The notes below the pieces were generated by a model that worked only from the letters and a program-made list of their open reading frames with translations, was not told the DNA's origin and ran no database searches. A program made the position numbers and the translations under genes. Positions 1-14,283 of a stretch of 28,110 nt of DNA are shown here, piece by piece. Position 1 is the first letter of the stretch. Each line of letters opens with the position of its first letter. This DNA is from a virus. Location of the stretch: UHGV virus genome UHGV-0095852; one strand, written 5' to 3'.

Positions 1-142
1 GGCTTCTTAGGCCGCTACCATCATCAGATCATCGTTTGCATTTACTTTAATGGTCGGGTTCTAAACCGCCGCAAAGTCGCTAACCATGACGAAAACCCTA
101 AAAAAGCCCACCCGAAGATGGGCAAATACGCTACATCTCACA

Positions 143-221
143 CAAGAAAGAAGCCGACTGCCTGAGCTGGATTCACTTTCAAATGCCCGCAGAAAGGGAT
201 CACAAGTCGGCTTCTTTCTTG
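143..221. repeat. perfect 17-bp inverted repeat (CAAGAAAGAAGCCGACT / AGTCGGCTTCTTTCTTG) separated by 45 bp
   Basis: Read directly: 143-159 is the exact reverse complement of 205-221; lies in an ORF-poor region. Confidence 0.6.
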
Positions 222-706
222 ATGCGGCACTCTCTCCGCCCGTCACCGCTCTGTCTCGGTTGTCGCGTTTGCCACGCCAGCCGTAACGAGGTTTAAAGTC
301 TTTGCACGTTTCCATCACTCGACTGCCGTCTGTGGCTGTTCGTTGCAGCGGGGGTGCCTCCCCCTGGGGATATCCCCGGCCTTACCCCATTCTTTCAAGA
401 CACAATGCAAGGCCGCATCCGCATAGGTGCATTACCGCAACATTAAGGAGACTTAGGGCAAAAGGTAATCGCCACAAAAAAATCCCTATGCCTCCTTAAT
501 GTTGAGGATGTGCATTGATGATGATTCGATGCGGCGAGTCCCGTTACTCTCTGCCGGACCATCATCAATGAACATCTTAAAAAGACCTTCCGTGGCTCAA
601 CATGTCTTGTTGTTTACTCCGTAAAGTGCTCTCTCTGAAACCACTTTACGCACTAAACCTGCTGAACTTTGGCTTGCTCGGTGCCAAAGCGAGCCCCTGT
701 ATGCAT

Positions 707-727
707 GTAATTTTCTAACACTTTAAT
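707..727 (+). promoter_or_regulatory. operator-like motif, copy 1 (core TTTTCTAACA)
   Basis: Intergenic; shares the (A)TTTTCTAAC core with five other intergenic copies. Confidence 0.3.
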
Positions 728-859
728 TTGTTATTTGCTGGTGGGCGAACAACAACCAATAAGTGACTATCAAGCCCAGCAAGCGAAATGTGGCAACGCT
801 CCACCAGCAAGGAAAATTCTAAGTTAAGTTACTCTCACAATCAATATGTTCGTTTAATG

Positions 860-880
860 AAATTAGATTTCTAACATATT
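860..880 (+). promoter_or_regulatory. operator-like motif, copy 2 (AAATTAGATTTCTAACATATT)
   Basis: 20 of 21 identical to copy 3; abuts the stop codon of the 879-2099 gene. Confidence 0.4.
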
Positions 881-2099
881 ATTTCCCATAAAGATCTTCT
901 ACGCCCCCATTCTTCTTGTCCCATTCGTTAGCCCACACCCGGCAGGCATCAATAATTTCTTGACGACGGTCGCCCTGCATAAAGGGGATGCTTTCATGAA
1001 AACTACTTGGGATACAGGCCACGCTGAATACGGTATCAAACGCAGTCTGTTTGATAGCTTCCAACGTCTCTGGGCGCATTTTCAATTCATCGATCGGCGC
1101 ATCCTTAGAGTCCATAATCCGGCGATGCAGGCGCGGGAAATCAGTCTCCAGGTACGCCATAATTTTATCTGCCAGGCATTCGTCTATATCGGTATTCCAG
1201 TCCGTTTCGAAGCCGGGCAGGCGATAGTAAAGCGGCGTTCCCCATACTGATGGGATCACATCCATCGTCAGCAGGCGGTTGGTTCTAATTTGTTGATGGT
1301 AATTAGCCGTCAACAGAGCTTCACCACGCTGACCAGTCTCCGCAACCAGACCATGCGGGTACTCATGGATATAGGCAATAGCATCCACCCCGTCATACAT
1401 GAGCGGGAATGTCTCTGGCCTTTGTCCCATACCACAAGCGCGGTTCAGATCATGACCAAGCTGTGAGCACTCTCGTTTCAGCGTTTCAATAATGTTCTGC
1501 GCTGCTGCTAACTTTTTACGCAGTGTGACGCCTTCGCCTTGATACTTAATGCATTGCTGATTCAGCTCTGTTAAACGCTCTTTTAGTTCCCGACGCTCTC
1601 TTTTCAGCGCACGGTTATCCTTCTCCGCAACATCCAGTCGTTTTGACAGACTGGCTGGATAGTCTTTTTTGTAACGACTCAAATCGGCTTCTGCGGATTT
1701 GCGCAGTGTGTTTGCCTGTTCAAGACGCGCTTCCAGATTGCCGATCTCACTACGCATATTCGCGGCAAATTGATTAACAGCATTGCCAAGACTTTCAACT
1801 GTCGCTGATACGCCTGTGACTTGTGAAAAACGGATCAAGCCATCATTAACGGCTTGTTGATATTCCTCAAACTGATCCACCAGCTTGTTGTAATCAACCG
1901 TCCCTTCCTCAAGTAGCTGGTTGATCTCCGCGACCAGGTTATCAGTAGTGGCAATGACGCTCTCATGTAGCCGTCTGGACAGGTCATCCCCCGGATTCCG
2001 CTTTTGAATAAGGGCGATCTGTGTCCGCAGCGTTTCAATCGCGGCTGAGATGATTTCCAGATTAGAAGTATCAGTTTGTTGACTCATTGCAGTTCCCAT
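879..2099 (-). CDS. hypothetical protein, 406 aa; N-terminal about 230 aa coiled-coil-like (heptad-rich, E/K/R/L/Q rich), uncharacterised C-terminal domain
   Basis: Long uninterrupted ORF; own regulatory motif upstream and bidirectional terminator further upstream; no family recognised by eye. Confidence 0.6.
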   Translation of the reverse strand: MGTAMSQQTDTSNLEIISAAIETLRTQIALIQKRNPGDDLSRRLHESVIATTDNLVAEINQLLEEGTVDYNKLVDQFEEYQQAVNDGLIRFSQVTGVSATVESLGNAVNQFAANMRSEIGNLEARLEQANTLRKSAEADLSRYKKDYPASLSKRLDVAEKDNRALKRERRELKERLTELNQQCIKYQGEGVTLRKKLAAAQNIIETLKRECSQLGHDLNRACGMGQRPETFPLMYDGVDAIAYIHEYPHGLVAETGQRGEALLTANYHQQIRTNRLLTMDVIPSVWGTPLYYRLPGFETDWNTDIDECLADKIMAYLETDFPRLHRRIMDSKDAPIDELKMRPETLEAIKQTAFDTVFSVACIPSSFHESIPFMQGDRRQEIIDACRVWANEWDKKNGGVEDLYGK

Positions 2100-2112
2100 T
2101 GTTTTTTTTGCA

Positions 2113-2133
2113 AAATTAGTTTTCTAACATATT
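2113..2133 (+). promoter_or_regulatory. operator-like motif, copy 3 (AAATTAGTTTTCTAACATATT)
   Basis: Sits 14-34 bp upstream of the start codon of the 879-2099 gene; contains TTAG-N4-CTAA dyad. Confidence 0.4.
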
Positions 2134-2171
2134 TTATTAGTATGAGGACAAGAGCGAAAGATGTGATAAAC

Positions 2172-2198
2172 AAAAAACCCGCTAATCGGCGGGTTTTT
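2172..2198 (-). terminator. rho-independent terminator (bidirectional), stem ACCCGC/GCGGGT, 6-nt loop, A-run and T-run flanks
   Basis: Hairpin 2177-2194 with T tract on the minus-strand reading; separates the small-ORF operon from the 406-aa gene. Confidence 0.6.
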
Positions 2199-2204
2199 GA
2201 GCGG

Positions 2205-2519
2205 TTATTGTGTCATTGCCTGGTAGATAAAATACACGATGCATACCGGTACGATAGCCCATTGCAGCAATGAAAGCAGCCTCATGGCTGTCATGGGAGT
2301 AACTCCGTCTACGTATTCCTTCTCTGACATTTTCCCTAACCAACTAACCGACAAAAGGGTCGAGTTCTCCCCCATTTCCAGCTCCCTGAGGGCTTCCCGG
2401 ATTAAAGGCGCTGTTACCACCTTGCGGGCAGTGTTGAGCGTAATGCTCCGCGTCCTCCCGGCGTCATCGGCAAACGCCAGGTTCACATGATATTTTTTGC
2501 TCAATGTACAAACTCCCAA
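2205..2519 (-). CDS. small hypothetical protein with hydrophobic C-terminal segment; true start may be internal (Met49 has an AGGGAG RBS)
   Basis: ORF begins at TTG; C-terminal LLSLLQWAIVPVCIVYFIY looks transmembrane; preferred over the antisense plus-strand ORF because the terminator is oriented for minus-strand transcripts. Confidence 0.3.
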   Translation of the reverse strand: MGVCTLSKKYHVNLAFADDAGRTRSITLNTARKVVTAPLIREALRELEMGENSTLLSVSWLGKMSEKEYVDGVTPMTAMRLLSLLQWAIVPVCIVYFIYQAMTQ

Positions 2520-2701
2520 TCATCAGCGCCTGTACTTTCCGGGGTAATGTGAACCTTATCACCAGTGACAATATTCCGAGCCTCTATTGTTCCATTGTTG
2601 TGTTTCAACAACTCAACACACAATGGTTGCTGCCAGGAACGACGGCGAGCAACAACGTTAGCACCAGCAGGGATAAGTTCAGCCACGTTAAGTAAACGCA
2701 A
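2501..2701 (-). CDS. small hypothetical protein, 66 aa
   Basis: TTG start preceded by GGAG at about 9 nt; lies directly downstream of the nuclease gene. Confidence 0.3.
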   Translation of the reverse strand: MRLLNVAELIPAGANVVARRRSWQQPLCVELLKHNNGTIEARNIVTGDKVHITPESTGADDWEFVH

Positions 2702-2715
2702 AACGATTTCTCCGT

Positions 2716-3207
2716 TTAATCAAGACAAACATATTCCGTGATAGCTTTTATGGCTTCAGCGGCACTGCGCGCCTCAAAGCAGTAGTAACCTGCTTCGGTG
2801 AGGCGAGTCATCCAGACGAGTTGTTCGGGAGTCAGGCGATTTCTCCCATGTTTCATCTCAATGCGCATTCCGTGGTATCCCCCACAAGCAAGGTCTATAG
2901 AAAGATCGGGATATCCCTTCTTTTGGCCCTCTGCCACCATTTTTATTGCCGTCCTTATGCCTCGCAGACCGCCGTTTGGAGTGGCGTGTGTATGCTCATA
3001 CACATAGCGCATATTGCGATACAACCAATCCAGGACGCGTACCTGCTCGTAATGCTCATGGTTCCTTTTGATTAGATCTGGGTTTTTCTCCAGTTCTCTG
3101 AGAGCTGCGGCATGTGGGGATGTTTCAGAATATTCACTGCGACGCCTTCTTTTTCTCGCTATTTTTCTAACACACCCATTGATAGTAAATAAGCGAAATA
3201 ATAACAA
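2716..3207 (-). CDS. VRR-NUC-like (PD-(D/E)xK) nuclease; start uncertain, probably downstream of 3207
   Basis: GYPDLSIDL ... IEMK motif pattern typical of VRR-NUC; operator-like motif copy 4 lies inside the N-terminal extension, so the real start is probably later. Confidence 0.55.
   Translation of the reverse strand: MLLFRLFTINGCVRKIARKRRRRSEYSETSPHAAALRELEKNPDLIKRNHEHYEQVRVLDWLYRNMRYVYEHTHATPNGGLRGIRTAIKMVAEGQKKGYPDLSIDLACGGYHGMRIEMKHGRNRLTPEQLVWMTRLTEAGYYCFEARSAAEAIKAITEYVCLD
3158..3175 (+). promoter_or_regulatory. operator-like motif, copy 4 (TATTTTTCTAACAC)
   Basis: Same core as copies 1-3; positioned in the presumptive 5' region of the nuclease gene. Confidence 0.3.
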
Positions 3208-4080: not shown

Positions 4081-7000
4081 TTAGGCCGCATCGGCGATTA
4101 TTTTACGCAGTTCATCTACCGAGTAACGAGTAGATACCATCCACGCCGGACGGTCAAAGTTCACATCAGCAACCGGGTTTGCTTCAAAATTCCAGAAACG
4201 CCCGCCAATCTTCTTAATCGCGTCTTTGGCGTTCCGTATTGTCGAGGAACCTGGCTGGTCGGCAATGAGATAAACCGCGCCAACGTCTTCGCTGACGCTC
4301 CACCAGCGCCCGCGAACACGCGCCTTAGCGCGAATCGGCTTATCATTAACCACAATGATATAGTCATCATTCGCCGCTTCATCAGCTCTGGCTTCAGCCA
4401 CTGCCGCCTGCTCTTCTCTTTTGCTTTCAGCCTGCTCAAGCCTTTCCGCGATCTCTGATTCAGTGGCCCCGCCGTTTTTCAGCGATACATAGTCCTGCCA
4501 CGTTGCCGATTTGAGCGCATCCGGCAACTCATTCACATAGTCGCCGTCTTTCAACTCACGGGCGCGACGGGTGGCCATTTCTACCAGGCGATTAACAGAA
4601 ACAGCATCAGCAAAATCGTCCTTACTAATGTGTTTTTCATCAAATGCATTGATGACAGCCCCCACCTTAATCCACTGCGCTGCTGGCGAATCCAGAGGAT
4701 TATCGGCCTGAACAATGGCTAATTTCGCTCCATCGACACCATTATTAGCCAGCTGCTCCAATGCCGACCAGCCATCGGCATCGCTGAGTGATTTATATTG
4801 CTCAAACAATGCATCGCGCCAGGCCACCAGCGCAGCTCGTGTTTTCTCAATTTTCGCCGTAATTTTCGCGGCCTTCACCTGATTAAACATCCGTTCAATG
4901 TCATCAGTGTTGCTAAAGGCTTTCATCCTGCCCTGGAATAAACGGTATGCCACCACGGTCTTCCAGAAAGATTCCAGCCCTTCTCCGGACGGTTTACGGA
5001 ACAGGCTAAGAATATCTTCAGAAGTAACTTTATTAAGTGAGCGACCGGACAAACCACGCCCTGCCATCCAGTTTTCAAACTCCTGGGAAACATCATCCAT
5101 CGTGGCCTGTGACCCCCATGCCTGCATTCCCTGGATGTAATCATATCCATACAATGCCTGGAGGAATCCCTCGCCGTCCACGACATTCAGCGGGTTATCA
5201 CTGGCTTGTATTTTTGCCACTTCACGCTTCAGCGCCTCGTCGTTGCCATCAGGATATATCCATCGCTCAGGTGCTATATCCGATGCTCGCCCGATTTTTT
5301 GGCCTATCACGCCATCATAGGTCGATGACAGCGCGATCTGACCATCATCTGTGCGATAAGCCCAGTATTTAATAGCTGAACCACCGCCCCATACTCTACC
5401 AGGCTTCCCGGCAGTGACATTCATTACCCCATTGCGAATAGCATCATAGAACTGATCGCGCGTAAGTGTTGTTGATAGCTGGTGGCATTGAACACCACGT
5501 GCAGCTGTTTCACGCGATTCTGCAACTCCCTCTTCAAAGGTTACCGATTCAATTATCAGGTTAAAGGGCAAAAATAATGCCGTCCCCGGAGAACGAGAGT
5601 AACGACTAGCCACATCCAGCCAGGATATGCGGCACGTACACCCGCCCCTTTCCGCATCAATGGCGGTAACACGAACAATTGCTGTCGTATTGTGATTCTC
5701 ATCGATGATCGCGCGATAATGGCTGCCCTTGTGCAACAAGATATTTTTCTCAGTGCGTACATACTCCTGTGGGTTCTGCAATACATCGGCATCAAGCTCC
5801 AGAACCCCGGCTTTAATCGCACGTTCCAGATCACCACGAGAACGTTTCATAACGGTGTCAGCGTCTTTAGCTCTGGTGATCGCAAAGCGTAGCTCCCGCA
5901 CACGTTTTCTGTAGTCTCGCAACTGTTCCAGAACATATTTCTGCCCGTTCCTGTTCGTCCCCGCTTTAATCAGGTCGTCAAGATTGCGCTGGTAATGCTC
6001 TACCTGCTCCATCGCGCTTTTCAGTTCTGTCTCCATCATGCCGATATCTTTCCCGGCAGCATTCGCCGCTTTCAGGTAGTTATCGAGAGCATTATTGGCT
6101 TCGCGTAGGGCTTTCAGTTTCAGACGTTCTTCACGCTCTTGCGCCTGACGACTCATGATTGCACGGCGTTCTTCCGGATTTGCCGCCAGCATAATGGCGC
6201 GTTCATCTGCGTCATCCGCATCACCATTGGCGATCTCTGACATGTCTGAGGTCATCACCATATTGATCCAGTCCTTCTTACGTTTCAGCGTATCCAGACG
6301 GAAGTCATCAAATGTGCCTTTGCCACAATAGTAGTGAACATTGACCTTTTCTTGTGGTGAGCCTACCCGAGCGCCGCGCCCATTACGTTGGTCGATACTG
6401 GCAGGAGTCCAGGGTAGTGTCAGATGGTGGATATCGGTTGTACCGATGTGCAAGTTAATACCTACTTCAGCCTTCTTGTTACAGATTATGATGCGCGTGC
6501 GACCTTCGTTATAGTCGGCGGCAATACCTTCCATGCCCTCAAGGCCAGCATCATTTTTAGCTGAGAGATAATCCTCATATTGGGCAAGTTTGCTGTAGTA
6601 GGTTTCCCATGCACCTTCTTTGTATTCACCGTTTTTATTTGGCGTAGGTTCAGTCGGCTTATTCACCTTCTTCAGCTTGACGCCGCCAGCCTGGCTAACT
6701 GTCGTCGCATTGATAATGCCTATCTCCTGCTCCGGCATTTGCAGTGCACTGGCAATAATACGGCGCAGCTTCTGGTGCTGGGCTTTTTCATCAATGAAGA
6801 CGATTTGTTTACCGTTCTTCAGACCTTCACGAAGGTTTTCGATCAGCGCGGCATACTTCGGCGGGATGGGGTGTGATACCTGCTGCATATCAATACCGGC
6901 AGCCGCAATGGCCTTCAGTATTTCAGCTTCCAGTTCAATGCCAGCACGTATTTCAACATGCGACGGATGTTCGCTAAAGGTGGTCTTCACTACCTTGCTG

Positions 7001-10000
7001 GTACGCGTACTGACCAGCCCACCAGCGCCATCTTCTTCGGCCTCGTCTGCATCATCTGCCACTTTACCGCCAGCTACTTTTGGCAGGGCATCAGCAATAG
7101 CTTTTACCTTGTCTGCAAGCTCAACGGGGAACTGGAATGTAATCGCACTGGCATACAGATCAGGATCTATAGCAACCTTATCCATGTCGCGGATGATGGA
7201 GAAGATGAAATCATCCGGTTTTTCGTTTGTGATATGCCCGTTTTCATCGACCGTCAGCGCATCTTTACTACTTAACTCCTGTGCACGCTTACGAAGTTCT
7301 TCGTAAATGGCCTCTTGCTCTCCTGTCATCGGGATCTGCAAGGTATTCTCGACAATATCAGGGATTTTTACCGTCGCCCCGACGTCCGCAGCAGTCTTCA
7401 GAGTAGTCCAGCGATGGAAAATACCACGCAGACCATCCAGGTTCTGGAAGCCCACCAGTCCCTGCTTCTCTTCCACCTCACCGGAAATTTTCTGAACCTG
7501 AACTGTGGCTGTTTTACCGAACACGCGAACGAAATCATCCGGCGTAACAATACCCATGCGCATCCACTCTTCCTGCGGAATGACAGTAGACAGCATGTTG
7601 AAAGCATCAATCGGGCTGTTCACCAGCGGTGTTGCCGTCAGCATAACCACACCACGCCCGTTGTTGCGTTTCATCATGTACGCAGCTTTTACAGCCATGT
7701 CGCGGGCCATTTTGGATACTGCCGGGTTAGGCAAATATGCCAGTTGCCCCGCTTCGCGCCCGGCGCTAAAGGAGTTGCGGTAGTTATGTCCTTCGTCGGC
7801 AATTACGCTATCGAAGTTCATATCCTCAAAGTACGGGATATTCTGCTTCTTCGTTGTACCGGTATTTGCGGCCTGGTCCTTAATCTTGTTCTTCTTCTGC
7901 GCGTCACGGTGTTTGCCAGATGCCAGGTCAAGACGCCCCATTTCCACAGCATTAAAGACCGCTTGCTGTGAGTTTTCCTCAATGGTTTCTTCTCGTAGCG
8001 GGATAGACGCGAATTGCTCTTTTGTCATGATGACCGTTCGCCAATTTGACGACGGGATCATGTTCATGCGCTGAACGATAACGGCGCTGGCGGACTCTTT
8101 CACAACATTTCGGGTAAGAGGCTGCCCGTTACTGTCGAGGCGTGGTTCGCCATTTTCATCAAGCACCGGCGCGGTCAGAATATTTCCGCTGTCATCACGA
8201 ACTTCATCCAGACCGATAAACATCATATTGGCGAAGGCATCAGCACTGTAGAAGCTCTGTGCCTCGTGATACCAGTTCTGATAAACCGCCTTCGGAACAA
8301 CAATACACGTGCGTTTAGTGCGACCTGTTTCGAAGTTATACGCCTCAAGCGCAAGCGCGGTCGTGGTTTTACCCAGCCCGGTACCAAATCCCATGATGCC
8401 GCGCCCATCTTCTGACAAGCGCCGAACTTCTTCATTCTGATAAGTCAGAGGAATGCGCTTCCCACTAATCCCCTCCAGGCCAAGCGGTGCGTCAGAATGC
8501 GTAAACGGGATGAAGCCATTAAATGCGTCGTTATAGTCGCGGGCTATCTGATCAGCCTGCGGGTGAGTGCGTAACCAGTCGTTGAAGCTAATTTCCAGTT
8601 GAGCAATCTTATCCAGGTACTCGTTAGCGTTCTGCCCACGCGGTTTAATGCCGTTCAGGTAGTTTTCTAACTGGTTCAGGAAGCCGTCTTTATTGTTGGC
8701 CTTCTTGAACTCATTCCCGTTTTTGCCGTTTACGGTTCGTAGTTGATAGCCAGTAAATACCCCGTCCTTACCTTCGTAATCGTCCGGAGATACCAGAATG
8801 CCGTCCTCAACCTTAAGGTCGGGTTCTGTATACTTAAACTCGTCATAGCCCTGCTCTGCCAGGAACTCTTTTATCAAGCGGCGATCCAGCCAGCGGGCGT
8901 TCAGATTAACGGTGACTTTATTTAGTGGCGTGAAAATGCGTTTCTCTTCGATTTTCGCCAACTGACGCTCAAAGTTCGCTTTCTGCTCACCTGTTGACGC
9001 ATCACGCCAGCCCACCAGCAATGCTGTTTTGGTTGCAATATCGCCGCTGGTGGCGCGGTCCATCGGCAGCAGGCAGCCATACCCATCAATAGCGATATCA
9101 TCAAATTTCGCCAGGTATTCCAGAGCAGCATCGTCGTCTCCTGGCAGTTCGCCAGCAAACGCCTCACGAAAATCGTCCAGTGTGATTGGATTAAGTGCCA
9201 CGTCACTGAAAAGGTGGGTTACAACTTGTTCCGGGCGTGTAAAGTCAATACCGGCAGCACCATCCGTTACATCAAGTCGTCCAGCAAGGAGGTCAGAAGC
9301 AGAGCCGTCCTGTTTCACGTTGCCAGTGAAAGTCATCCAGTTTTTAGCGCCAGCTTCAGCAATCCCATTCAGCTTAATCGCGTGCGGCGGACCATACTTC
9401 GCAATTTCGGCTTCCGCCAGGCGCGCGGCATCAGCAAGTTCATCATCAACATTTTCCCCCAGATTACGCTTATCAAGCGCCTTGTTGATCAACTGCCCTA
9501 TCAGTGCGCCGCGCATAACGCGTTCTCTGTCTTTTTCTCTCTGCTTGCCAGCAAAGCGAATCATTGCCGCTACTTCATCACTGATAACCGACGGATAGTC
9601 GGACGCGATCGCCGATATCTGGTCCCATGACAACGCCAGAATGCCATTTGTTGACTGAAACGCGATCTGCAGATCACCAAACGTCGTAACACCATATCGA
9701 TTTACATCAAGAGCGGAGGATTTGGTTGTCGCGTCCTTGACCCATTTCAGGCCATCAAACTCATGCCAGATGCCGCCTACAAGGCGTTTATCGCCCACTT
9801 TCGCGCCCTGCCATGCCTGAGTAGTTACGCCAAGCAAATCCCAATTAATGCGGCTTTCAAAGCGGCGCGATAGAGCGGTTTTCATCGACTCATTGGATAC
9901 ACGACCGTCCTTTTTCACCACCAGGGTATTGCGGAAGCTGGTACGCTCCATATCGCCGTAAACAAATCGCTTCCCTTCGGTTGTAAACCATTTCCCTTTG

Positions 10001-14261: not shown

Positions 14262-14283
14262 ACTATGTTAGAAATTTAACTTC
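14262..14283 (-). promoter_or_regulatory. operator-like motif, copy 6 (minus-strand reading GAAGTTAAATTTCTAACATAGT), overlapping palindrome AGTGTAT-ATAA-ATACACT
   Basis: Same TTTCTAACA core in the opposite orientation; intergenic. Confidence 0.35.

What the first reader, a model, noticed from the sequence alone, without database searches (positions are those of the whole stretch)
1..878. About 880 bp without a credible ORF but with several long inverted repeats
Seen in sequence: a perfect 17-bp inverted repeat (143-159 / 205-221, 45-bp spacer, both arms preceded by CACAAG), a 9-bp one (620-628 / 642-650), ATTAAGGAG / CTCCTTAAT (about 445-503) and GGGGG-TGCCT-CCCCC (351-365). The ORF-track ORFs here are low-complexity and lack ribosome binding sites. 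Inference: this is a structured non-coding element (sRNA, protein-binding sites or a recombination or replication site), not coding sequence. I looked for loxP and P1 parS boxes and did not find them.
Basis: partly seen in the sequence, partly recalled or inferred. Interest (0 to 1): 0.4.

Follow-up and report, generated by a model that had tools for sequence, protein, structure and literature searches.

The report
Repressor-controlled structured leader of tRNA operon
This 880-bp stretch of a P1/D6-like phage-plasmid most likely holds no gene, except perhaps one 31-codon reading frame: it looks like the control region and long, heavily folded RNA leader of the phage's early tRNA operon, and it carries a ~110-nt RNA module, not annotated in any resource searched, that also sits at the start of the early-left operon of many lambda-like prophages.

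Summary
The inverted repeats are real, within 1 bp of the stated coordinates. The region folds far better than shuffles (z about -7.5). No ORF matches a protein family, and indels break most frames.

The window is a D6-like (P1-related) phage-plasmid. Bases 1-878 lie between the pmgS stop and a tRNA/tci cluster just outside the window. Everything reads on the minus strand. In order:
- two copies of a candidate D6-type C1 operator (876-860, 720-704), flanking
- a conserved sigma70-like promoter (844-816);
- a pair of inverted Chi sites;
- covarying hairpins, one of which sequesters a perfect Shine-Dalgarno ahead of a possible 31-aa ORF;
- a ~110-nt conserved module (349-224);
- a 25-bp covarying hairpin (221-143);
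- an intrinsic terminator (123-100) shared with the P1 'dicF-like' ban leader.

The conserved module has no Rfam match and is unannotated in RefSeq E. coli. In 46 of 57 other loci it lies just downstream of a CI-like repressor gene, on the same strand. It is not a put RNA.

Best reading: a repressor-controlled promoter plus a modular structured leader that governs transcription into the tRNA genes. The antitermination, sRNA and small-toxin roles are untested.

The parts
860..876 (-). Candidate D6-type C1 repressor operator O1 (TGTTAGAAATCTAATTT), directly after the pmgS stop codon (881-879)
   Evidence: The 9-mer TGTTAGAAA occurs 5 times in the window against 0.31 expected, and no shuffle of 100 reached 5. 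The D6 genome has 12 copies against about 1 expected. They lie next to c1, ref, hrdC-dmt, icd-ant and cre, which per my recollection of the P1 genome paper are operons carrying C1 operators in P1. The core is invariant in 22 relatives. The P1 operator consensus is absent. Binding is inferred, not shown.
816..844 (-). Sigma70-like promoter: -35 TTGATT (844-839), 17-nt spacer, -10 TAGAAT (821-816); predicted start near 809
   Evidence: This is the only promoter-like hit in 1-2300. Both hexamers are invariant or nearly so in 22 sequences as little as 73% identical to the window, while the spacer varies at fixed length. No transcript data exist.
735..810 (.). Perfect 10-bp inverted repeat TTGCTGGTGG / CCACCAGCAA, equal to two inverted Chi octamers (737-744 on +, 808-801 on -), 56 bp apart. 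On the RNA it would form a hairpin at the 5' end.
   Evidence: I6. Chi count is 13 in the window against 0.85 expected, and 53 in D6 against 2.8 expected. Eight of the nine pairs are invariant in 22 relatives (one relative breaks three pairs) while the interior varies. With no covariation, a DNA role (Chi) and an RNA stem cannot be told apart.
704..720 (-). Candidate operator O2 (TGTTAGAAAATTACATG), 156 bp (about 15 helical turns) from O1, downstream of the predicted start
   Evidence: (direct repeat D1).
612..658 (-). Hairpin I3 (core CGTAAAGTG 650-642 / CACTTTACG 628-620)
   Evidence: Pairs are kept, and a G-C to G.U change in 8 sequences is tolerated only on the minus-strand RNA.
502..581 (-). 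Hairpin I2 (about 22 pairs), just upstream of the Shine-Dalgarno
   Evidence: There are five pairs with one-sided wobble changes (G.U/A-U, U-A/U.G, C-G/U.G, G.U/G-C). All stay paired on the minus strand and would be A.C mismatches on the plus strand.
442..500 (-). Hairpin I1: ATTAAGGAGGCATAGGG (500-484) pairs with CCCTAAGTCTCCTTAAT (458-442) and sequesters the Shine-Dalgarno AAGGAGG (497-491)
   Evidence: RNAalifold on 22 sequences finds three pairs with changes on both sides (C-G/U-A, A-U/G-C, G-C/A-U) plus a U.G/C-G/U-A pair. AAGGAGG is invariant.
382..477 (-). Candidate small ORF, TTG start, 31 aa: MWRLPFALSLLNVAVMHLCGCGLALCLERMG
   Evidence: The frame and a start codon 7-15 nt after the Shine-Dalgarno are kept in five lineages with different hydrophobic N-termini. 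Three of the 4 shared polymorphisms are synonymous third positions, but n is too small. The frame is broken or extended in L077, L075, L041 and the L076 group. No family matches. Status is open.
350..377 (-). Two G+C hairpins, GGGGAUAUCCCC (377-366) and GGGGGAGGCACCCCC (364-350), with no U tract
   Evidence: Present in all D6-like relatives.
224..349 (-). Conserved leader module: hairpin H3 (349-335), core with the invariant GCUGGCGUGGCAnACGCGACA (P4 hairpin GCGU-GGCAN-ACGC), P5 hairpin (variable stem, GAnAG loop) and P6 (239-224)
   Evidence: The covariance model hits 346-238 at 109.6 bits. The module is found in D6-like plasmids, a Pantoea plasmid, phages Kp4865-1 and mEp390, Phytobacter and Mixta genomes, 67 IMG/VR contigs and metagenome contigs. 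Of its cells 98% are paired, but covariation is seen in P5 only. It is absent from relatives L005 and L077. It has no Rfam match and no annotation in RefSeq E. coli.
143..221 (-). Long hairpin: a 17-bp perfect stem plus 3+5 further pairs, extended to about 22 bp by CAUC/GAUG in the MFE fold
   Evidence: Of 25 pairs, 98.7% of cells are paired. Six pairs changed on both sides (G-C/C-G/A-U and others). All one-sided changes are C-G to U.G on the minus strand. Slid controls reach 48% paired at most.
100..123 (-). Intrinsic terminator GCCCAUCUUCGGGUGGGC + U6
   Evidence: It lies in the 126-bp segment that is 96.9% identical to P1 and forms the 3' end of P1's annotated 'dicF-like region'. It is conserved in all D6-like relatives.
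1..99 (-). Start of the P1-conserved leader that runs a further ~360 nt to tRNA-Arg/Asn, Thr, Ser and Met genes outside the window
   Evidence: The tRNAs are on the minus strand in D6, in the identical plasmid and in relatives.

Best explanation
Bases 1-878 are the control region and about 700-nt untranslated leader of the early tRNA/tci operon of a D6-like phage-plasmid. This is the counterpart of the P1 ban-operon control region, and it reads on the minus strand.

Shown or directly visible:
- The region lies between the pmgS stop and a minus-strand tRNA array.
- Its last 126 bp are the P1 ban-leader segment with an intrinsic terminator.
- It is a mosaic of modules that come and go among relatives.
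- Several hairpins are maintained by compensatory and wobble changes that fit only a minus-strand RNA.

Inferred:
- Transcription starts near 809 from the conserved TTGATT-17-TAGAAT promoter.
- In the lysogen the promoter is shut by the phage C1-type repressor bound at two operator-like 17-mers 156 bp apart on either side of it, perhaps by looping.
- After derepression, RNA polymerase transcribes a chain of structured modules before it meets the terminator at 123-100. These modules are the SD-sequestering hairpin with a possible 31-aa ORF, the conserved 349-224 module and the 25-bp hairpin.
- The leader modules then decide how much transcription or stable RNA reaches the tRNA genes. My preferred mechanism is that the conserved module helps polymerase read through the terminator, and the long hairpin serves as a processing or stability element.
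For: Context:
- D6 is 93.9% identical over 1-900, and P1 is 96.9% identical over 1-126, in P1's 'dicF-like region' downstream of Pban/Oban.
- The tRNAs are on the minus strand.
- A plasmid 100% identical over 1-900 has no listed CDS here (PLSDB's gene table is incomplete).

Promoter: the hexamers are conserved and the spacer varies in 22 relatives.

Operator motif:
- 5 copies against 0.31 expected in the window, and 12 against about 1 in D6.
- The D6 copies lie next to c1, ref, hrdC-dmt and icd-ant.

Structure:
- z = -7.5.
- I1 has 3 compensatory pairs.
- I2 and I3 have many wobble-only changes.
- The long hairpin has 6 compensatory pairs and C-G to U.G changes on the minus strand only.

Terminator.

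Module 349-224:
- In 11 contexts examined it points the same way as the downstream genes, and in 7 of them it is followed within 150-520 nt by an intrinsic terminator lying ahead of the gene taken to be next.
- In 46 of 57 non-D6 loci it lies 315-1786 nt downstream of a CI-like repressor gene on the same strand, and in 0 loci on the opposite strand.
- In phage mEp390 it lies about 290 nt downstream of a TTGACA/TACATT promoter that follows cI.

So it is a recurrent component of repressor-controlled early operon leaders.
Against: - No transcript, start-site or binding data exist.
- The promoter scan finds fewer hits than shuffles (1 against 3.1), so the promoter rests on conservation alone.
- The operators do not overlap the promoter as P1 operators do. 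Their assignment to C1 is by genomic distribution only. Copies also precede pmgS and gene 23, which in P1 are late genes.
- The plus strand folds as well by z-score.
- In the conserved module, helices P1-P4 never covary. A G to U change in L023 and mEp390 breaks the proposed P2.
- Four of 11 contexts lack a canonical terminator downstream.
- Relatives L005 and L077 do without the module.
- If the 31-aa ORF is translated, part of the 'leader' is an mRNA.
Confidence: 0.6

Rival explanations
1. One or more trans-acting small RNAs. The RNA ending at the 123-100 terminator, or a piece cut from the leader by RNase III/E as DicF is cut from the dicB operon transcript, acts by base pairing on host mRNAs. 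On this view the invariant 21-nt GCUGGCGUGGCAnACGCGACA is a seed.
For: - P1 annotators called the homologous leader 'dicF-like'.
- The terminator hairpin plus U6 is a typical sRNA 3' end.
- The body upstream of the shared terminator is swapped among relatives: the P1 dicF-like segment in L005/L077, the conserved module in the window, and both in L004.
- Near-invariance of primary sequence, rather than covariation, in the core fits a seed.
- DicF also lies in an operon downstream of a CI-like repressor gene (own knowledge of the Qin prophage).
Against: - There is no Rfam DicF hit or any other sRNA hit, here or in P1.
- No promoter is seen within about 300 nt upstream of the terminator.
- In lambdoid contexts the first terminator is up to 520 nt downstream of the core, and the conserved leader is over 400 nt long, which is large for an sRNA.
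- No target was tested.
Confidence: 0.2
2. A small toxic or membrane peptide gene under tight translational control, organised like a type I toxin. The 31-aa hydrophobic ORF (477-382) is the payload, and hairpins I1 and I2 keep its Shine-Dalgarno closed.
For: - A perfect, invariant AAGGAGG is sequestered in a hairpin with 3 compensatory pairs. Two of the compensated changes are synonymous in the ORF.
- A start codon 7-15 nt after the Shine-Dalgarno and a hydrophobic N-terminus are kept in five lineages despite sequence turnover.
- Three of 4 shared polymorphisms are synonymous.
Against: - The frame is broken in L077 and L075, has no start in L041 (where the loop is inverted), and runs on past the stop in the L076 group.
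- There is no antisense promoter or terminator on the plus strand.
- No family matches.
- The statistics rest on 4 sites.
- The same nucleotides are also constrained by RNA pairing.
Confidence: 0.15
3. The repeats act at the DNA level: recombination hot spots (Chi pair), cruciforms, or binding sites for replication, partition or packaging proteins. On this view they do not act as RNA.
For: - The 10-bp repeat at 735-744 / 801-810 is two inverted Chi sites that are invariant in relatives.
- Module boundaries here are recombination junctions.
- Watson-Crick compensatory changes are strand-neutral, and the plus strand folds equally well by z-score.
Against: - There are no iterons or repeated protein-site arrays other than the two operator-like motifs.
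- D6 rox, repA, repL, stbAB and pac functions map elsewhere.
- Many tolerated changes are G.U wobbles on the minus strand. These would be A.C mismatches in a cruciform or a plus-strand RNA.
- The minimum free energy is 20 kcal/mol lower on the minus strand.
Confidence: 0.07
4. Mostly non-functional spacer: recombination scars between modules picked up from P1-like and lambdoid phages.
For: The mosaic make-up and presence/absence polymorphism of whole modules. An inversion of the I1 loop in L041.
Against: - Hairpins are kept by compensatory change.
- The core is conserved across Escherichia, Klebsiella, Pantoea, Phytobacter and Mixta elements whose flanks and repressors differ, the repressors down to 28% identity.
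- The fold z-score is -7.5.
Confidence: 0.05

Closest known systems
P1 ban-operon control region (Pban, bivalent C1 operator Oban/Op72, 'dicF-like' leader, trnA-trnT-tciABC-trnI-ban)
   Same: It occupies the same place upstream of the tRNA/tci cluster. It shares 126 bp at 96.9% identity, including the terminator hairpin at the 3' end of the dicF-like region. It shows the same logic of a repressor-controlled early promoter followed by a long untranslated leader.
   Different: The P1 operator sequence is absent, and a different 17-mer is present that flanks the promoter rather than overlapping it. The leader is about 700 nt instead of about 190. The P1 dicF-like body is replaced by other modules. 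pmgS, not dmt, lies upstream.
DicF sRNA (Rfam RF00039) of the Qin prophage dicB operon
   Same: It is an RNA embedded in a repressor-controlled early operon downstream of a CI-like repressor gene. Its 3' end is at an intrinsic terminator. A long dsRNA hairpin could be an RNase III site.
   Different: There is no covariance-model match at E<=1 here, or at E<=5 in P1. Complementarity to ftsZ was not examined.
put antiterminator RNAs of HK022 and HK639
   Same: It is a cis element in the sense strand, a few hundred nt or less downstream of an early promoter. It lies upstream of terminators, in phages that show no N gene at the usual place. It is built of stem-loops with invariant unpaired bases.
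   Different: There is no sequence or model similarity. The model R1 finds nothing in HK022 24-34 kb or in HK639, including its annotated putL-like RNA. Local alignment scores are within the shuffle range. Only one copy per genome was seen. Activity is untested.
Lambda-type nut sites (boxA + boxB)
   Same: It sits at the head of the early-left operon. It has a small invariant hairpin with a 5-nt loop (GCGU-GGCAN-ACGC), preceded by a hypervariable linker and a conserved single-stranded run (CUCGUUA).
   Different: No boxA consensus is present. No N-like gene was found downstream, where the genes are RdgC, DUF2303, gp49/66 or tRNAs. The resemblance is by eye only.
Type I toxin-antitoxin loci (hok/sok-like organisation)
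   Same: It has a short hydrophobic ORF, a strong Shine-Dalgarno locked in a conserved hairpin, and a long structured 5' UTR.
   Different: No antisense RNA signals and no family match. The ORF is not intact in all relatives.

Membership tests
P1-type ban operon control region | Lies immediately upstream of the phage tRNA/tci cluster, on the same strand | tested here: met
   tRNA-Arg/Asn, Thr, Ser and Met, plus tciA and tciB, lie to the left of the window on the minus strand in D6, in the identical plasmid and in relatives.
P1-type ban operon control region | Sequence homology to the P1 ban leader | tested here: met
   Window 1-126 is 96.9% identical to P1 68855-68982, overlapping the annotated dicF-like region. 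Homology stops at 126.
P1-type ban operon control region | P1 C1 operator (ATTGCTCTAATAAATTT) overlapping the promoter | tested here: not met
   No match with up to 3 mismatches anywhere in the window. A different over-represented 17-mer flanks the promoter instead.
P1-type ban operon control region | Repression by the phage C1 repressor | not testable with these tools
   Needs binding or reporter assays.
DicF sRNA (RF00039) | Match to the Rfam covariance model | tested here: not met
   No DicF hit at E<=1 in window 1-3000, nor at E<=5 in the P1 dicF-like region.
DicF sRNA (RF00039) | Base pairing with the ftsZ translation start region | not tested
   The host target sequence was not examined.
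put antiterminator RNA (HK022/HK639) | Sense-strand element downstream of an early promoter and upstream of terminators | tested here: met
put antiterminator RNA (HK022/HK639) | Sequence/structure similarity to putL/putR (for example GAACGGCGCG...UAAACCAUGCGUCGG) | tested here: not met
   The R1 model gives no hit in HK022 (24-34 kb) or HK639 (whole genome). Smith-Waterman scores are not above shuffles, with 57-187 of 500 shuffles at least as high.
put antiterminator RNA (HK022/HK639) | Protein-independent terminator read-through through the RNA polymerase beta' zinc-binding domain | not testable with these tools
   Needs in vitro transcription or rpoC mutants.
Lambda-type nut site | boxA consensus (GCUCUUUAACAA-like) | tested here: not met
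   Matches with up to 3 mismatches in the 14.9-kb locus are at chance level, 17 against 13.3 expected. None lies in the leader.
Lambda-type nut site | boxB hairpin bound by an N protein encoded in the operon | tested here: inconclusive
   An invariant 4-bp/5-nt-loop hairpin exists. No N-like ORF was recognised downstream.
Type I toxin-antitoxin | Short hydrophobic ORF with a sequestered Shine-Dalgarno | tested here: met
   The 31-aa ORF, with AAGGAGG inside hairpin I1 that has 3 compensatory pairs.
Type I toxin-antitoxin | Antisense or divergent antitoxin sRNA | tested here: inconclusive
   No plus-strand promoter-like or terminator-like site in 1-878 by consensus scan. Weak promoters would be missed.
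Type I toxin-antitoxin | Membership of a known toxin family | tested here: not met
   No Pfam or PHROGs hit, and only a sub-threshold NCBIfam hit (11.9 bits against a cut-off of 50, to an unrelated RiPP peptide).
Any Rfam 15 family | Covariance-model match at or near the gathering score | tested here: not met
   The best hits in 1-878 are STnc240 at 25.3 bits (gathering score 55) and tmRNA_permuted at 22.8 (gathering score 47). There are no hits at E<=0.5 in the lambdoid versions.
Chi recombination hot spot | Exact octamer GCTGGTGG | tested here: met
   Found at 737-744 (+) and 808-801 (-). The window holds 13 copies against 0.85 expected.

The most novel reading that the evidence does not exclude
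The conserved ~110-nt module (349-224), with the invariant core GCUGGCGUGGCAnACGCGACA and GAnAG-loop hairpins, is a new class of cis-acting RNA unrelated in sequence to put. It lets RNA polymerase read through terminators in repressor-controlled early operons. It would be shared by the early-left operons of many N-less lambda-like prophages of Enterobacterales and, by module exchange, by the tRNA operon of D6-like phage-plasmids.
Probability: 0.22. Interest if true: 0.8.

Novelty: new variant of a known kind. Interest (0 to 1): 0.5.

Why it matters
P1-like and D6-like phage-plasmids are common in E. coli, Salmonella and Shigella: 588 plasmid records match part of this region and 107 carry most of it. 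How their early tRNA operons are controlled is, as far as I could find, undescribed.

The analysis yields three testable things.
1. A candidate operator sequence for the D6-type C1 repressor, which would define the D6 immunity regulon.
2. A promoter and leader whose modules are swapped among relatives. This is a natural experiment in leader evolution.
3. A conserved RNA module with no Rfam match and no annotation in the records examined, recurring just downstream of heteroimmune CI-type repressor genes in lambda-like prophages that show no N gene there. If that module is an antiterminator or a processed regulatory RNA, it would explain how a sizeable group of lambdoid prophages express their early-left genes. 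It would also add a second RNA-only solution beside put.

Tried and rejected
- **Known RNA families.** Rfam scans of the window, the identical plasmid, the P1 region and the lambdoid versions gave only sub-threshold hits: STnc240, STnc230, tmRNA-like, MicA and miRNA models. No tRNA or tmRNA lies in the window.
- **Coding sequence.** No ORF has a Pfam, PHROGs or NCBIfam family. The short frame MMQT.K.VKTR* inside the conserved module differs by non-synonymous changes and a 1-nt indel. The 80/113-aa ORFs over the lambdoid leader show 5 synonymous against 11 non-synonymous differences (by eye).
- **P1 C1 operator.** Absent.
- **rrn/lambda boxA.** Absent.
- **put RNA.** A shared 9-mer (CUUUAAACC, CCAUAGACG) looked suggestive by eye, but alignment scores are within the shuffle range and the model finds nothing in HK022 or HK639.
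- **Mobile-element explanation for presence or absence of the module.** Only short, imperfect direct repeats lie at the junction. This is undecided.
- **CsrA-type GGA loops.** Not consistently present in the GA-rich loops.
- **Literature.** The P1 genome paper and the D6 genome paper are not held. A sequence-string search of papers found nothing relevant.
Full report
**What the window is.** Bases 1-900 are 93.9% identical to phage D6 and 100% identical to an E. coli plasmid (NZ_CP122510). In all, 588 plasmid records match part of the region, and 107 carry at least 80% of it. The window therefore comes from a D6-like, P1-related phage-plasmid.

In D6, and in the identical plasmid, nothing is listed between the pmgS-like gene and a tRNA cluster (the plasmid's gene table is incomplete). 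The pmgS-like gene is at window 879-2099 on the minus strand. The tRNA cluster lies just left of the window. ARAGORN places these tRNAs (Arg or Asn, Thr, Ser, Met) on the minus strand in every relative, followed by tciA and tciB. The finding is therefore the intergenic region upstream of a minus-strand tRNA/tci operon.

Bases 1-126 are 96.9% identical to P1 68855-68982. That segment overlaps what the P1 record calls the 'dicF-like region'. In P1 this region lies between the C1-controlled promoter Pban/Oban and the tRNA genes of the ban operon. Beyond base 126 the similarity to P1 ends.

**The observation.** Two more exist: 502-528 / 555-581 and a perfect 10-mer at 735-744 / 801-810.

Folding 100-810 gives -271.7 kcal/mol on the minus strand (z = -7.5) and -252.1 on the plus strand (z = -7.9). 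No shuffle did as well.

None of the ORFs of 30 aa or more matches Pfam, PHROGs or NCBIfam. Relatives carry indels and whole-segment replacements that break the longer frames.

**A mosaic of modules.** I aligned seven, and then 22, D6-like sequences that are as little as 73% identical to the window. The alignments show blocks that are present or absent as units:
- The P1-like leader and terminator (1-126) are in all relatives.
- A P1-type dicF-like segment is inserted after 142 in some (L004, L076, L005, L077).
- The long hairpin (143-221) is in all.
- The segment 222-341 is missing from L005 and L077.
- The rest (342-878) is in all.

**Promoter and operator-like motifs.** The only sigma70-like site in 1-2300 is on the minus strand: TTGATT (844-839), 17 nt, TAGAAT (821-816). 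On its own this is not significant. However, in 22 relatives both hexamers are invariant or nearly so, while the spacer between them varies at constant length. That is the pattern expected of a real promoter.

The 28-nt direct repeat found by the repeat finder turns out to be two copies of TGTTAGAAA plus an A/T-rich tail, at 876-860 and 720-704.
- This 9-mer occurs 5 times in the window against 0.31 expected.
- It occurs 12 times in the D6 genome against about 1 expected.
- In D6 the copies sit next to c1, ref, hrdC-dmt, icd-ant and cre.
- The P1 record marks C1 operators at dmt and ban; from my recollection of the P1 genome paper, the c1, ref and icd-ant regions also carry them.
- The P1 operator consensus itself is absent.

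I therefore read the motif as the D6-type C1 operator. This is an inference from distribution, not from binding data. Copies upstream of pmgS and gene 23 do not fit the P1 pattern neatly. The two copies here flank the promoter at a spacing of 156 bp, about 15 helical turns.

**Chi sites.** The perfect 10-bp inverted repeat just downstream of the predicted start is two inverted Chi octamers. Chi is strongly enriched in this element: 13 copies against 0.85 expected in the window, and 53 against 2.8 in D6. Both copies are identical in 21 of the 22 relatives. Their conservation may therefore reflect Chi function rather than an RNA stem.

**Structured RNA on the minus strand.** RNAalifold on the 22 sequences predicts a chain of hairpins.

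It encloses an invariant AAGGAGG.

Hairpins I2 and I3 vary almost only by G.U/A-U/G-C exchanges. These stay paired on the minus-strand RNA but would be A.C mismatches on the other strand.

The 143-221 hairpin was tested on nine distinct sequences:
- It has 25 pairs, and 98.7% of cells are paired.
- Six pairs have changes on both sides; at one position G-C, A-U and C-G all occur.
- All one-sided changes are C-G to U.G on the minus strand.
- Slid controls reach 48% paired at most.

Together with the lower free energy of the minus strand, this supports a minus-strand transcript. It argues against DNA cruciforms or a plus-strand RNA.

**A possible small ORF.** Thirteen nt after AAGGAGG, a TTG opens a 31-codon frame (477-382) for a hydrophobic peptide.
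- For: five lineages keep this frame and a start codon 7-15 nt from the Shine-Dalgarno, although the N-terminal codons differ. Three of four shared polymorphisms in the conserved part are synonymous third positions.
- Against: the frame is broken, extended or left without a start in four other lineages. The sample is tiny. The same bases are also held by RNA pairing.

I leave this open, at roughly one chance in three that it is translated.

**The conserved module (349-224).** Distant searches showed that about 110 nt here recur in otherwise unrelated DNA:
- a Pantoea plasmid and Klebsiella phage Kp4865-1;
- 67 IMG/VR contigs;
- Phytobacter and Mixta genomes;
- metagenome contigs;
- phage mEp390.

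In complete E. coli genomes it is present in 101 of 5426, with no feature annotated under the match in the 40 records listed. No Rfam family matches the D6 version or the lambdoid versions.

The core GCUGGCGUGGCAnACGCGACA was required almost whole by the three search patterns, so its invariance across all copies is partly circular; phage mEp390, found by BLAST, lacks it. Within it lies a 4-bp hairpin with a GGCAN loop. Downstream hairpin P5 changes its stem freely (ACCG/CGGU, CACG/CGUG, GCCG/CGGC, UUAG/CUAA) but keeps a GAnAG loop.

A structure with four helices is 98% paired, but only P5 covaries. One proposed helix (P2) is supported by variant L120 and contradicted by L023 and mEp390. The fold of the core is therefore only partly established. 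G.U pairs again favour the minus strand of the window.

A 1-nt indel and non-synonymous differences rule out a conserved peptide.

**Where that module lives elsewhere.**
- In all 11 contexts inspected it points the same way as the genes downstream. Those genes differ: tRNAs and tciAB, a gp49/66-family protein, RdgC, DUF2303 and others.
- In 7 of the 11 an intrinsic terminator follows within 150-520 nt, lying ahead of the gene taken to be next.
- Of 57 loci that are not D6-like, 46 have an HTH + peptidase-S24 (CI-like) repressor gene 315-1786 nt upstream on the same strand, and none has one on the opposite strand. Most of the rest lack enough upstream sequence.
- These repressors are as little as 28% identical to one another. 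Cro-like and CII-like genes lie on the other side in the three loci inspected and in mEp390.
- In phage mEp390 a TTGACA/TACATT promoter follows cI, and the module begins about 290 nt downstream of it.

The module is thus a recurrent part of the leader of the early-left operon of heteroimmune lambda-like prophages. No N-like gene was recognised there. A variant keeps only the 3' half, still downstream of cI.

**Comparison with put.** This position is that of nutL or putL, so I compared the module with the RNA antiterminators of HK022 and HK639.
- The covariance model finds nothing in the HK022 immunity region or anywhere in HK639, whose record annotates a putL-like RNA.
- Local alignments to putL and putR are no better than shuffles.
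- No boxA is present.

The module is therefore not a put or nut family member. Whether it works like one is untested.

**Most likely mechanism.** A C1-type repressor holds the 844-816 promoter off in the lysogen. On derepression a leader of about 700 nt is made. Its modules control translation of the small ORF if that ORF is real, control stability and processing, and control passage through the 123-100 terminator into the tRNA genes.

The steps that are shown are the genomic position, the homology to the P1 ban leader, the conservation pattern of the promoter, the motif enrichment, and the covariation and strand bias of the hairpins. The steps that are inferred are repressor binding, the start site, and any antitermination, sRNA or toxin activity.

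**Verdict.** But it is a composite regulatory leader, not a single element or a replication or recombination site.

Most of it is a new variant of a known kind of region. The conserved module is the part that could be new in kind.

Noticed in passing
window 737-744(+), 801-808(-), and 11 more sites (1877, 4300, 4824, 5478, 7019, 9012, 9046, 12223, 12433, 14900, 20268): Chi octamers (GCTGGTGG) are about 15-fold over-represented: 13 against 0.85 expected in the window, and 53 against 2.8 in the D6 genome. Ten of the 13 are on the minus strand.
   Followed up: partly
window 2113-2129(-), 3164-3172(-), 14266-14274(+): Further copies of the operator-like motif TGTTAGAAA. One lies 17 nt upstream of the pmgS start codon, one near the start of the pmgM-like/VRR-NUC ORF, and one between the repL-like and pro-like ORFs. 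If this is the C1 operator, some morphogenetic genes would be under direct repressor control, unlike in P1.
   Followed up: partly
L001 (D6 MF356679) 4934-5639; record 7145-7850: The D6 GenBank record lists tRNA-Ser, Thr and Asn on the plus strand. ARAGORN finds them, plus an unannotated tRNA-Met(CAT) at L001 3873-3948, on the minus strand, co-directional with tciA/B. This is probably a strand error in the record.
   Followed up: partly
L003 (NZ_CP122510) 6563-6639 versus L001 5564-5639: The first tRNA of the array is tRNA-Arg(TCT) in the plasmid identical to the window. It is tRNA-Asn(GTT) in D6, L004 and L005. A tRNA gene has been swapped at a fixed position.
   Followed up: no
L003 5850-5970(-), outside the window: An Rfam STnc100 sRNA match exactly at the gathering score (47 bits, E = 2.4e-8) lies between tRNA-Ser and tRNA-Met of the array.
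   Followed up: no
L003 about 6480-5980(-), outside the window: A repeated spacer motif (CTTACCGTTGTGA..GAATGCA) follows each tRNA gene of the array. Similar CCCTTACCTGTT motifs occur in P1. It may be a processing signal.
   Followed up: no
L041 about 820-890 (equivalent to window 438-507): In one IMG/VR relative, the segment between the arms of hairpin I1 is inverted. This removes the Shine-Dalgarno and the start of the small ORF. It is an example of inversion across an inverted repeat.
   Followed up: partly
window 7-112(-); P1 L002 4007-4111(-): There are weak, sub-threshold hits to permuted, alpha and beta tmRNA models (E = 0.06 here, 0.01 in P1) in the leader segment shared with P1. This may reflect a tRNA-like fragment. 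ARAGORN finds no gene.
   Followed up: no
window 2173-2198(-): A strong intrinsic terminator (AAAAACCCGCCGATTAGCGGGTTTTT + T-rich tail) lies between the pmgR-like gene and pmgS, just upstream of the operator-like motif. It overlaps weak STnc230 and rnk-leader Rfam hits.
   Followed up: no
L007 (Klebsiella phage Kp4865-1) 1600-3030: In this unverified record, the whole lambdoid-type leader plus a gp49/66-family gene, with its own terminators, sits on the opposite strand between the terminase and portal genes. This looks like a moron or an assembly artefact.
   Followed up: partly
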